Below, piece after piece: positions 35,717 through 37,962 of a stretch of 64,000 nt of DNA. The stretch is taken from assembly GCA_000165345.1 (NCBI GenBank), contig CM000431.1:480001-544000 (forward strand). The letters are read 5' to 3'. The position numbers and the translations under genes are program-made. A model generated the notes under the pieces. The model ran no database searches, was not told the origin of the DNA, and saw nothing but the letters and a program-made list of their open reading frames with translations. Positions within the stretch are counted from its first letter, which is position 1. Each line of letters opens with the position of its first letter.

Positions 35717-36149
35717 ATTTACAAATTAATCTCAAAATATCCAAAAGCTGGTAAATGGAAAAAACAAGCAAATTACTATGCTAAAAAAAGTTGCCCTTAA
35801 TATCAACAAATAGGGAAATAAATCTAACTGGTTAGGTATTCAGTTATACTAAAAAAATAATATTTTACGTATACATCTACTAGGTACTTAAAGTATTGAA
35901 TAAACTATTTAATTTATATTCTTCCTGAACGTTTAATTGCGCCAAAGCTGATAAATTATTATTTATAAATTTTACTAATTTTAGTTTATTTAAAATAAAA
36001 AAATATACTAAGTGGCCAAAGTAGGCGCTCTAAGTTTTGGCGGTATGTGGGTCTACATTTTTTTTTTTGACATTGTGTGAAGGATAATAAAAGCGTAGTA
36101 AAATAGTCAGTTATTACTGAATTCAAAAGCTTAATTTATGGCTGTAACA

Positions 36150-36784
36150 TGATCAAAGGAGATACAGAGTGGACAACATTGGCAGCTGGGATTATACTTT
36201 TTAAGAGCGACATAGTAAAAAATGAATCAGGGAAAGAAGAAATTGAACCAAATTTCTTATTGCTCAAGTGTTCCAAAAACTTTCACTGGAGTCCTCCAAA
36301 AGGTAAGAATTAATCAAAATAGTAATTTTAAACACTTACTAAATAAATAAAAAGGGATTTCAGAGTATGATGAAGAAAACGACCTATTAAGGACTGCATT
36401 CAGGTAAGTAGCAAATCATATTTGTTCTAGTTCTTTTTAGTCCAAAAACACTCTTTAGAGAAACTCTAGAAGAAACAGGGATAGGCCCACAGCAAATTAA
36501 GCTTTACAATAACTTTGTAAAAGTAAGTACCGGAAAAGTAGCTTTCTTACTCATTTGAAACACGAGTTCATAGGAAATACAATATGAAGCCTGGAATAAG
36601 AAAAAAACAGTGTTTTACTATTTAGGAGAATGCATGAATGATACAAAAATAGTTATATCACATGAGCACAGTGAATATAAATGGGCAAATATTAGCCAAG
36701 TAAGACAACTAGTAGAATTTGAATCACTAATTCAAATATTTAATGATGCATTTGAAAGGATAGTGATGGAGAAGAAGCTTTAAA
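36150..36784 (+). CDS. Nudix hydrolase, Ap4A-hydrolase (NUDT2)-like, 155 aa, encoded by 4 exons: join(36150..36303, 36365..36404, 36460..36523, 36575..36784). Not in the ORF track
   Basis: Spliced translation: MIKGDTEWTTLAAGIILFKSDIVKNESGKEEIEPNFLLLKCSKNFHWSPPKG/EYDEENDLLRTAF/RETLEETGIGPQQIKLYNNFVK/EIQYEAWNKKKTVFYYLGECMNDTKIVISHEHSEYKWANISQVRQLVEFESLIQIFNDAFERIVMEKKL*. The Nudix box G-x5-E-x7-REUxEExGU (RETLEETGI) is assembled across exons 2/3. The C-terminal block parallels NUDT2 '[28 protein letters not shown]'. All three introns are GTAAG(A/T)...AG and 51-61 nt long; phases 1, 2 and 0 are consistent. Confidence 0.7.
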
Positions 36785-36835
36785 TATAGTAAGCAAAAGC
36801 TCAACGGTAGAGTAGTGATATATATAATATCTATA

Positions 36836-37690
36836 CTATCTTCTTCCACGATTAGAAACGCGCCCCTTTCTACTATTTCTTGTGGATACCCCAATTTCCG
36901 TATGGTTGTCGACAATGGAAGAGTTTTCTGATTTGTATTCGCCTTTATAGTTCACTCCATTTGCATTAGTTTCTGCGTTATTTGCGTCATTACTTACGCC
37001 TCCCATATCCTTATTAGCGCATCTTCTTCCTCTAGTATTTCCTTCAGAAGAAGGATGGATATTTGGCTCGGGAGATTGCGCAGGCGACATTACAAAATGT
37101 CCATGCGAATGTTCTGAGTTTTTCCTTAAGACTAAAAATGTGCGAATAACATCGACAGGATTAATTTCAAAGTTACTAAAATGTTCATTAATTTTTTTGG
37201 ATATTGTAGCTTTGTCTTGCGTCAAATCTATTTCATCAGCTTGCCTATCGTGGAAAAATGATTTATAGCGCCTGTAGAAACCTTCTTCAAATACAGAAAA
37301 GTCGATCTTTGAGAGGTGTTTACTCTTACCCTTATTCTCTGGAGAAGTAACGTCCTTCATTTCTATGTTTTCTTTGTTTTCATCTTGTTTTTCGCCCTTT
37401 AGTGTGCTCTCGACATTTGAATTTGAATTGTTTGAGTTTTCCGTACATACAGCCTCTTCTAGAGTCTTGCCCACGCTCTTGTTTGACTCCTCCTCAACAA
37501 TATGTTGAGATTTTAGTTTCTCCATGAGATCTGTCTCCACTGTTATTGTCCCATTCTCCTTTCCAACAACTTGCCCCTTAACCATTGCTTCTTCTTGATT
37601 GCTATTTTCATGCATTTTTACCTCCTCCTCCAAATTCATTGGGCAAGCTAGATCAGTTGTATTTGCCATGCCAAGTCCTTCACCCTCCAT
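36836..37690 (-). CDS. Hypothetical low-complexity acidic/basic protein (284 aa)
   Basis: ORF with ATG start. Lys/Glu/Asn/Ser-rich with an Arg/Gly-rich C-terminus. No recognisable domain. Convergent with the Nudix gene; the stops are 51 nt apart. Confidence 0.4.
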   Translation of the reverse strand: MEGEGLGMANTTDLACPMNLEEEVKMHENSNQEEAMVKGQVVGKENGTITVETDLMEKLKSQHIVEEESNKSVGKTLEEAVCTENSNNSNSNVESTLKGEKQDENKENIEMKDVTSPENKGKSKHLSKIDFSVFEEGFYRRYKSFFHDRQADEIDLTQDKATISKKINEHFSNFEINPVDVIRTFLVLRKNSEHSHGHFVMSPAQSPEPNIHPSSEGNTRGRRCANKDMGGVSNDANNAETNANGVNYKGEYKSENSSIVDNHTEIGVSTRNSRKGRVSNRGRR

Positions 37691-37962
37691 TATCCTGGTC
37701 TTTTTACAATACTGTTTTTTCCCTCTTTCTTAATCTCTATCCTTTTTTTTTGCTTGTACTGTGATCAAATAATTAGCACTAAAGGGCGCCAGAATCTCCT
37801 TATACAGTGGCTATTTCAAAAATGACGGTATAGGCACTCAGCTGAGCATGTTTTGGCGGTAATACTTATTAGAGTGTACTATTTAGAAATACAAGTTAAT
37901 TTATTTTATTACAATAAAAGGAAATTTACAGCACATAAAATCGAATGGTTTAGCTCTAAACA

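What the first reader, a model, noticed from the sequence alone, without database searches (positions are those of the whole stretch)
36150..36784. Unannotated four-exon Nudix (Ap4A-hydrolase-like) gene hidden from the ORF track by three roughly 55-nt introns
The 430-nt gap between TCTP and the 36836..37690 gene contains no track ORF. Read with GTAAG...AG introns (36304..36364, 36405..36459, 36524..36574), it gives a clean 155-aa Nudix protein. The Nudix box 'G-EYDEEN-DLLRTAF-RETLEETGI' is split across exons 2 and 3, and a NUDT2-like C-terminal block (KKKTVFYYLGECMNDTKIVISHEHSEYKW) follows. All phases are consistent and all donors are GTAAG(A/T). In a largely intron-poor genome, a 4-exon small gene is unusual. 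It is a good test case for the local intron grammar: GTAAGT donor, AT-rich body, (T)nAG acceptor.
Basis: seen in the sequence. Interest (0 to 1): 0.6.

Follow-up and report, generated by a model that had tools for sequence, protein, structure and literature searches.

The report
Known Cryptosporidium Ap4A hydrolase gene

Summary
The window is Cryptosporidium parvum chromosome 3: 1 mismatch in 6,635 nt to GCA_048859185.1. A four-exon NUDT2-type Nudix (Ap4A hydrolase) gene lies at 36149-36783 (+), between TCTP and a 284-aa gene. After that shift, its model gives a 155-aa protein identical to GenBank KAL5369543.1 and WKS76937.1, so the gene is annotated. A second public model of 158 aa (cpbgf_3001950, CPATCC_0032910) ends intron 1 at an AG 9 nt upstream (36353-36354) and adds Gly-Ile-Ser, which includes the Nudix-box glycine. 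Nine Cryptosporidium species favour the 158-aa model. Among the six close intestinal species, the 9 nt change only at codon third positions. All three introns keep their positions across the genus. Intron 1 splits the same Gly codon, in the same phase, as an intron in Daphnia and an apparent one in a flea. The protein matches human NUDT2 (E 4e-23), and its predicted fold matches Ap4A hydrolase structures (TM 0.8-0.9). The catalytic and substrate-binding residues are conserved. This is an ordinary, already known gene; the only useful result is the corrected splice site.

The parts
36149..36302 (+). Exon 1 (154 nt): ATG to the first base of the Gly52 codon. Encodes M1...HWSPPK51 plus G of the Gly codon (phase 1).
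   Evidence: An in-frame stop lies 13 codons upstream. The ATG and the PPK|G boundary are conserved in the species aligned.
36303..36354 (+). Intron 1 (52 nt), GTAAGA...AAAAAG, GC 0.15. It contains a TACTAAA branch-point-like element about 12 nt upstream of the AG; that reading is an inference.
   Evidence: The upstream AG is invariant in 9 of 9 Cryptosporidium species. It is the acceptor used in cpbgf_3001950 / CPATCC_0032910.
36355..36363 (+).
   Evidence: Mean pairwise identity is 0.78, against 0.64-0.76 for exons and 0.46-0.54 for introns. Among the six close species, variation is at codon third positions only (GGG/GGT/GGA; TCA/TCG/TCC/TCT). The downstream AG is absent in C. meleagridis, C. 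canis, C. felis and C. serpentis.
36364..36403 (+). Remainder of exon 2 (full exon 2 is 36355-36403, 49 nt): EYDEENDLLRTAF plus the first two bases of the Arg68 codon (phase 2).
   Evidence: The alignment to human NUDT2 is ungapped across the exon 2/3 junction.
36404..36458 (+). Intron 2 (55 nt), GTAAGT...CTTTAG.
   Evidence: The position is conserved in 9 species.
36459..36522 (+). Exon 3 (64 nt): completes Arg68, then ETLEETGIGPQQIKLYNNFVK. Carries the REx2EE catalytic core of the Nudix box.
36523..36573 (+). Intron 3 (51 nt), GTAAGT...TCATAG.
   Evidence: The position is conserved in 9 species.
36574..36783 (+). Exon 4 (210 nt including the TAA stop): EIQYEAWNKKKTV...SHEHSEYKW...EKKL. Carries the Tyr/Lys phosphate-binding and adenine-stacking residues.
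35939..35946 (-). E2F-like site TTTGGCGC in the 432-nt divergent TCTP/Nudix intergenic region. Putative promoter element (inferred).
   Evidence: The motif family is described for C. parvum upstream regions in PMC3734150.
36036..36043 (+). E2F-like site TTTGGCGG, 113 nt upstream of the Nudix ATG. Putative promoter element (inferred).

Best explanation
Window 36149-36783 (+) is the Cryptosporidium parvum orthologue of NUDT2, the asymmetrical bis(5'-nucleosyl)-tetraphosphatase (Ap4A hydrolase, animal/archaeal type). Its public locus tags are cpbgf_3001950 and CPATCC_0032910, probably the same gene as cgd3_1950.

The gene has four exons and three short introns of 52, 55 and 51 nt. The product is a 158-aa single-domain Nudix enzyme. 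By homology, it should bind Ap4A through His46, Lys51, Tyr93 and Lys100, with adenine stacked between Tyr93 and Phe138. It should then hydrolyse Ap4A to ATP + AMP using Mg2+ held by the Glu residues of R68-E69-x2-E72-E73.

Intron 1 most likely ends at AG 36353-36354, so Gly52-Ile53-Ser54 are part of the protein. Some automated GenBank annotations make the same choice.

Shown here: gene structure, conservation, family assignment and fold. Inferred: the enzymatic activity and the splice site actually used in vivo.
For: Identity of the locus:
- The window differs at 1 of 6,635 nt from C. parvum CM109963.1.
- The 155-aa and 158-aa translations are both exact matches to deposited C. parvum proteins.

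Family:
- Pfam NUDIX scores 41.2 bits for the 158-aa model and 35.1 bits for the 155-aa model, against a cutoff of 21.1.
- The best solved-structure matches by sequence are all Ap4A hydrolases: human 3u53 E 4e-23, P. falciparum 5cfi E 4e-19, C. elegans 1kt9 E 7e-16. The next class is at about 1e-5.
- The profile search returns hundreds of animal NUDT2 orthologues at E 1e-32 to 1e-42.
- The AlphaFold model has pLDDT 89.5. The top Foldseek PDB hits are 5cfi, 4ijx, 3u53 and 1ktg, with TM 0.74-0.91.

Residues:
- Pf His43/Lys48/Tyr87/Lys94 and Hs Phe128, as described in PMC4734340, map to H46/K51/Y93/K100/F138 in the alignments.
- H46, K51, G52, R68, E69, E72, E73, G75, Y93 and K100 are invariant in a 13-sequence alignment.

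Splice site:
- The upstream AG is invariant in 9 of 9 species.
- The downstream AG is absent in 4 of 9.
- The 9 nt are conserved like an exon, with third-position-only changes among the six close species.
- The Gly codon is split at the same phase-1 position by an annotated intron in Daphnia and by an apparent, unannotated one in a flea.
- CPATCC_0032910 uses this acceptor. The paper describing the IOWA-ATCC annotation states that its introns are 100% RNA-seq supported (PMC8744675).
Against: - No transcript data for this locus could be examined directly here.
- Two C. parvum records, one C. hominis record and the chipmunk-genotype record use the downstream acceptor. In C. parvum that site (TTTCAG) looks more like a canonical pyrimidine-rich acceptor than AAAAAG does.
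- The Nudix box has non-canonical spacing: G-x5-E-x9-RE instead of x7.
- No biochemical data exist for any Cryptosporidium orthologue; two searches found none.
Confidence: 0.88

Rival explanations
1. The reader's 155-aa model is the true or major product in C. parvum. Intron 1 would be 61 nt and end at CAG 36361-36363, and the protein would lack Gly-Ile-Ser.
For: This model is deposited for C. parvum (KAL5369543.1, WKS76937.1), C. hominis (KAL3129008.1) and the chipmunk genotype. The TTTCAG context looks like a textbook acceptor. The model still passes the Pfam NUDIX threshold at 35.1 bits.
Against: - The AG it needs does not exist in C. meleagridis, C. canis, C. felis or C. serpentis.
- It deletes the Nudix-box glycine, which is invariant in every homologue aligned.
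- It scores 6 bits lower on Pfam.
- The 9 nt evolve as codons.
- The CPATCC and cpbgf locus-tag annotations use the other site (annotation method).
Confidence: 0.05
2. Both acceptors are used in C. parvum. This would be tandem alternative 3' splice sites 9 nt apart, giving a major 158-aa active isoform and a minor 155-aa isoform without the Nudix glycine. The minor form would be either splicing noise or a regulated inactive form.
For: Both AGs are in frame and downstream of the putative branch point. Independent annotations disagree between the two sites. The downstream in-frame AG is present in 5 of 9 species.
Against: The downstream AG is not conserved, so a conserved regulatory role is unlikely. 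Where it occurs, it is explained by Ser/Ala-Glu codon usage (TCA-GAG, GCA-GAG). No transcript evidence was available.
Confidence: 0.12
3. The protein is a Nudix hydrolase of the NUDT2 fold, but its preferred substrate is not Ap4A. Candidates include Ap5A/Ap6A, other dinucleoside polyphosphates, or 5'-triphosphate/capped RNA. The cause would be the genus-specific 2-residue insertion in the Nudix box.
For: The Gx5Ex9RE spacing is present in all Cryptosporidium species examined and absent from the Plasmodium, animal and bacterial relatives aligned. pLDDT is lowest in the folded core in the 51-60 block (78).
Against: All phosphate-binding and adenine-stacking residues of the characterised Ap4A hydrolases are retained. 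In the model, the insertion sits in the stretch just before the main Nudix-box helix (residues 62-74), not at the metal-binding Glu residues.
Confidence: 0.08

Closest known systems
Cryptosporidium parvum bis(5'-nucleosyl)-tetraphosphatase: cpbgf_3001950 (QOY42544.1) / CPATCC_0032910 (WRK31429.1), 158 aa
   Same: It is identical in sequence to the window's translation when intron 1 ends at 36354. It is the same gene.
   Different: Nothing differs.
Human NUDT2 / Ap4A hydrolase (PDB 3u53, 4ijx, 1xsa)
   Same: - About 35% identity over the whole domain, E 4e-23.
- TM 0.82-0.91 to the predicted model.
- The HW(S/T)PPKG motif, the REx2EE core, Tyr/Lys/Lys on the loop corresponding to PfAp4AH loop L5, and the stacking Phe (Hs F128 = F138) are all conserved.
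   Different: - Cryptosporidium has a 2-residue insertion between the Gx5E and RE parts of the Nudix box.
- It has a longer N-terminal beta-hairpin insert (residues about 19-34).
- Ser140 replaces Hs Glu130.
Plasmodium falciparum Ap4A hydrolase (PfAp4AH, PDB 5cfi/5cfj; PMC4734340)
   Same: It is the nearest characterised apicomplexan enzyme: E 4e-19 and the top Foldseek hit. His43/Lys48/Tyr87/Lys94 equal H46/K51/Y93/K100, and Ser135 equals S140.
   Different: PfAp4AH has Pro133 where Cryptosporidium keeps the human-like Phe (F138). PfAp4AH has canonical Gx5Ex7RE spacing.

Membership tests
Nudix hydrolase superfamily (Pfam PF00293) | Profile match above the curated gathering score | tested here: met
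   41.2 bits (158-aa model) and 35.1 bits (155-aa model), against a cutoff of 21.1.
Nudix hydrolase superfamily (Pfam PF00293) | Nudix-box signature residues G...E...RE-x2-EE-x-G-U on a loop-helix-loop | tested here: met
With the upstream acceptor the box reads G52-ISEYD-E58-ENDLLRTAF-R68E69-TL-E72E73-T-G75-I76. G52, E58, R68, E69, E72, E73 and G75 are invariant. The main helix spans residues 62-74 in the model.
Nudix hydrolase superfamily (Pfam PF00293) | Exact 23-residue spacing G-x5-E-x7-RE-U-x-EE-x-G-U | tested here: not met
   The spacing between E58 and R68 is 9 residues, not 7. This holds in every Cryptosporidium orthologue but not in the Plasmodium, animal or bacterial relatives. The consensus is a descriptive signature rather than a requirement, and the profile and fold criteria are met. 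I treat this as a genus-level variant, not an exclusion.
Nudix hydrolase superfamily (Pfam PF00293) | Alpha/beta/alpha sandwich Nudix fold | tested here: met
   AlphaFold2 model pLDDT 89.5, pTM 0.85. Foldseek found 324 PDB matches at E <= 0.001, and all 50 best listed are Nudix proteins.
Asymmetrical Ap4A hydrolase, animal/archaeal type (NUDT2, EC 3.6.1.17) | Closest full-length relatives are characterised Ap4A hydrolases rather than other Nudix subfamilies | tested here: met
   The five best PDB sequence matches are Ap4A hydrolases (E 4e-23 to 7e-16); the next is a MutT-related protein at 8e-6. The structural ranking gives the same order. The profile search returns named NUDT2 orthologues.
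Asymmetrical Ap4A hydrolase, animal/archaeal type (NUDT2, EC 3.6.1.17) | P1-phosphate binding His/Lys/Tyr/Lys, and adenine stacking by the loop-5 Tyr plus a second aromatic residue (PMC4734340) | tested here: met
   H46, K51, Y93 and K100 align with Pf H43/K48/Y87/K94. F138 aligns with Hs F128. H46, K51, Y93 and K100 are invariant.
Asymmetrical Ap4A hydrolase, animal/archaeal type (NUDT2, EC 3.6.1.17) | Mg2+-dependent cleavage of Ap4A to ATP + AMP | not testable with these tools
   This needs an assay of recombinant protein. No paper on a Cryptosporidium enzyme was found.
Expressed, spliced protein-coding gene | Spliced transcript with the proposed junctions | not testable with these tools
   The evidence is indirect only. 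The paper describing the IOWA-ATCC (CpIA) annotation states that all its introns are RNA-seq supported, and CPATCC_0032910 carries the 158-aa model. The ORF is intact and the introns keep their positions in 9 species.

The most novel reading that the evidence does not exclude
The most novel reading not excluded has two parts. First, C. parvum and its close relatives may really use both acceptors 9 nt apart. That would yield a minor NUDT2 isoform lacking the Nudix-box glycine, probably inactive. Second, the genus-wide Gx5Ex9RE insertion may shift substrate preference or create a parasite-specific pocket. A further point is that intron 1 may be an ancient intron, since it sits at the same phase-1 Gly codon as in arthropods.
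Probability: 0.12. Interest if true: 0.25.

Novelty: already known. Interest (0 to 1): 0.1.

Why it matters
It matters little for biology: this is a housekeeping Nudix enzyme that is already annotated.

The practical value is curatorial.
- Public records for this one gene disagree. There are 155-aa, 158-aa, 157-aa, 138-aa, 95-aa and 68-aa versions.
- The comparative evidence here shows which intron 1 acceptor is correct.
- It also shows that a "(T)nAG acceptor" rule would mis-splice this gene and delete a catalytic-motif residue.
- The case is a reminder that short multi-exon genes in intron-poor parasite genomes are invisible to ORF tracks.

Tried and rejected
- Full-text searches for cgd3_1950, CPATCC_0032910 and cpbgf_3001950 found nothing. 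Searches for Cryptosporidium plus diadenosine tetraphosphatase found no paper on this enzyme.
- No supplementary files are held for PMC8744675, so the RNA-seq support for this particular intron could not be read directly.
- The supplement of PMC4637869 lists only cgd3_1950/CHUDEA3_1950, with dN/dS 0.1. I could not prove that cgd3_1950 is this gene; the link rests on the matching numbering of cpbgf_3001950.
- Neither full spliced protein has Logan (public-run assembly) among its listed sources; the Logan members of its cluster are 49-57-aa fragments. No transcript-level check was therefore possible.
- I did not predict a structure for the 155-aa model, because AlphaFold confidence would not discriminate a 3-residue loop deletion.
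- The prokaryote-oriented tools (promoter/terminator scan, phage, plasmid and E. coli collections, bacterial genome collection) were not used because the organism is a eukaryote.
- Pseudogene, chance ORF and non-Ap4A Nudix subfamilies (MutT, ADP-ribose pyrophosphatase, RppH) were considered. They were rejected because the ORF is intact in nine species and the nearest relatives are Ap4A hydrolases.

Full report
**What is in the sequence.**
- The start codon is at 36149-36151.
- The stop codon TAA is at 36781-36783.
- With these coordinates the exons (154 + 40 + 64 + 210 nt) give a 155-aa ORF. With the literal coordinates of the finding, the translation is full of stops.
- The mechanical ORF list shows only a 54-aa fragment (exon 1 read into intron 1) and a 57-aa fragment (exon 4) on the plus strand. 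An ORF track with a 60-aa threshold would therefore show nothing.
- The "430-nt gap" is the 432 nt between the TCTP start (35716, minus strand) and the Nudix start. The two flanking ORFs are 1,119 nt apart.

**Whose genome, and is the gene unannotated?** The spliced protein retrieves Cryptosporidium proteins at E 1e-96 to 1e-52. The window differs at 1 of 6,635 positions from C. parvum chromosome record CM109963.1 of GCA_048859185.1. The same gene order (PRP38, a 328-aa ORF, TCTP, Nudix, a 284-aa ORF, a 118-aa ORF) is present in every other Cryptosporidium locus fetched with sufficient flank.

The gene is therefore not unannotated in public records. It was only invisible to the first stage's ORF track. 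The 2004 Iowa II record was a 95-aa partial (XP_001388104.1).

**A second gene model, and which one is right.** Using it gives a 52-nt intron and a 158-aa protein reading ...HWSPPK-GIS-EYDEEN....

That 158-aa sequence is also an exact public record: cpbgf_3001950 (QOY42544.1) and CPATCC_0032910 (WRK31429.1) in C. parvum. C. hominis has a 158-aa equivalent and C. meleagridis a 157-aa one.

I fetched the orthologous DNA from C. meleagridis, C. sp. chipmunk genotype I, C. ubiquitum, C. canis, C. felis, C. bovis, C. ryanae and C. serpentis. I aligned or exon-mapped these sequences. The results are as follows.
- The upstream AG is invariant in all nine species.
The 155-aa model cannot be made in those species.
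- Among the six closely related intestinal species, the 9 nt vary only at codon third positions (GGG/GGT/GGA for Gly; TCA/TCG/TCC/TCT for Ser). C. bovis has GGA-ATG-GCA (Gly-Met-Ala).
- The mean pairwise identity of the 9 nt is 0.78. Exons score 0.64-0.76 and introns 0.46-0.54.
- Pfam scores the 158-aa model 6 bits higher: 41.2 against 35.1.
- The glycine is invariant in a 13-sequence alignment that includes animal and bacterial relatives.
- The paper describing the IOWA-ATCC (CpIA) annotation reports that its introns are 100% supported by RNA-seq (PMC8744675), and CPATCC_0032910 carries the 158-aa model. This is indirect support, because I could not see the reads.

I conclude that intron 1 is 36303-36354. 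Several automated annotations make the same choice, probably because TTTCAG looks more like a textbook acceptor than AAAAAG does.

**Intron conservation.** All three introns keep their position and phase in all nine Cryptosporidium species, including C. serpentis, whose protein is the most divergent of those examined. C. serpentis is annotated with a fourth intron.

Donors vary between species: GTAAG, GTGAG, GTAGG, GTATG and GTACT. The "GTAAG(A/T)" rule therefore holds for C. parvum here but not genus-wide.

Intron 1 splits the Gly codon of PPK|G in phase 1.
- Daphnia pulicaria has a 62-nt intron at exactly this position and phase.
- In the flea Xenopsylla cheopis, an in-frame 60-nt GTATG...ATAG segment was read through in the deposited protein.
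- The Hydra orthologue is intronless.

This pattern fits either an old intron or repeated insertion at an AAAG|G site. I did not resolve which.

**How unusual is a four-exon gene here?** About 10.8% of C. parvum genes have introns. Intron-containing genes have 2-10 exons, with a mean of 2.6, and the mean intron length is 99 bp (PMC4637869). Three introns in a 477-nt coding sequence is intron-dense for this genome, but it is within the known range.

**What the protein is.**
- By sequence, the best solved relatives are all Ap4A hydrolases: human NUDT2 3u53 (E 4e-23), P. falciparum 5cfi (E 4e-19) and C. elegans 1kt9 (E 7e-16). The next class of match is at about 1e-5.
- A profile search returned 320 proteins at E <= 1e-8. 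The named ones among the best 120 listed are almost all NUDT2 orthologues.
- An AlphaFold2 model of the 158-aa form is confident: pLDDT 89.5, pTM 0.85. Its best Foldseek matches in the PDB are 5cfi, 4ijx, 3u53 and 1ktg, with TM-scores 0.74-0.91.
- I used the residue roles described for the Plasmodium and human enzymes (PMC4734340) and the alignments. The P1-phosphate ligands Pf His43/Lys48/Tyr87/Lys94 correspond to H46/K51/Y93/K100. The second adenine-stacking residue, Hs Phe128, corresponds to F138. The catalytic core is R68-E69-x2-E72-E73.
- H46, K51, G52, R68, E69, E72, E73, G75, Y93 and K100 are invariant.

The most likely mechanism is therefore the standard one: Mg2+-dependent asymmetric hydrolysis of Ap4A to ATP + AMP. 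This is inferred from homology and was not tested.

**One small difference from the family.** All Cryptosporidium orthologues carry a 2-residue insertion between the Gx5E and RE parts of the Nudix box, giving G-x5-E-x9-RE. The insertion is absent from the Plasmodium, animal and bacterial relatives. In the model it lies just before the main Nudix-box helix (residues 62-74), in the block with the lowest core confidence (pLDDT 78 for residues 51-60). It is a minor, genus-level variant of unknown consequence.

**Surroundings.** The 432-nt divergent region between TCTP and the Nudix gene contains two E2F-like sites: TTTGGCGC at 35939-35946 (minus strand) and TTTGGCGG at 36036-36043 (plus strand).
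- The pattern TTTGGCGS occurs 13 times in the window against 1.5 expected.
- Nine of the 13 sites lie in the 26% of the window outside long ORFs.
- This matches the known over-representation of E2F-like motifs upstream of C. parvum genes (PMC3734150; bioRxiv 10.1101/2025.01.17.633476).

**Verdict.** The family assignment is right. "Unannotated" is wrong with respect to public records. The first intron's acceptor is most likely misplaced by 9 nt, which removes a motif residue. The gene is an ordinary, already known housekeeping gene. The residual uncertainty is whether the downstream AG is ever used in C. parvum, and that can be settled only with transcript or peptide data.

Noticed in passing
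window 35939-35946 (-), 36036-36043 (+), 37852-37859 (+) and 10 other sites: The E2F-like motif TTTGGCGS occurs 13 times in the window against 1.5 expected. Nine of the 13 sites are outside long ORFs, mostly 100-450 nt upstream of start codons. Two sit in the TCTP/Nudix divergent promoter. This matches the published E2F-like motifs 3 and 4 of C. parvum.
   Followed up: partly
public records for this gene; L005 2501-3127, L003 2501-3248: The annotations of this one small gene disagree widely. C. parvum has 155-aa, 158-aa and 95-aa partial versions. C. ubiquitum has a 138-aa version that skips exon 3 and so loses REx2EE; my resplicing gives an intact 157-aa ORF. C. tyzzeri has a 68-aa 'TCTP associated protein'. 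C. felis has a 180-aa version with an extra 5' exon not seen in other species.
   Followed up: partly
L011 313-374 (Daphnia pulicaria); L008 about 931-990 (Xenopsylla cheopis); L012 (Hydra vulgaris): The Daphnia NUDT2 orthologue has a single 62-nt phase-1 intron in the Gly codon of PPK|G. This is the same position and phase as Cryptosporidium intron 1. The flea protein record contains a 20-residue insert that is an unspliced in-frame 60-nt GTATG...ATAG intron at the same spot. Hydra is intronless.
   Followed up: partly
L009 731-831 (C. serpentis); L002 and L010 intron 3: C. serpentis is annotated with a fourth intron of 101 nt inside YFLG|ECTN, absent from the other species examined. C. bovis and C. 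ryanae use an unusual GTACTG donor for intron 3.
   Followed up: no
window 36781-36838: The stop codons of the Nudix gene (36781-36783, +) and of the convergent 284-aa gene (36836-36838, -) are only 52 nt apart, so their 3' UTRs probably overlap. A 62-aa minus-strand ORF at 36727-36915 spans both and is probably spurious.
   Followed up: no
window 36836-37690 (-): The 284-aa neighbour has no significant Pfam domain. It gives only a sub-threshold SAP30 Sin3-binding hit (E 0.0066, 17.2 bits against a cutoff of 22.2) at residues 140-186. It is conserved in position in all Cryptosporidium loci fetched with sufficient flank.
   Followed up: no
all Cryptosporidium orthologues, residues 59-60 of the 158-aa protein (window about 36376-36381): There is a genus-wide 2-residue insertion in the Nudix box, giving G-x5-E-x9-RE instead of x7. 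It is absent from the Plasmodium, animal and bacterial relatives.
   Followed up: partly
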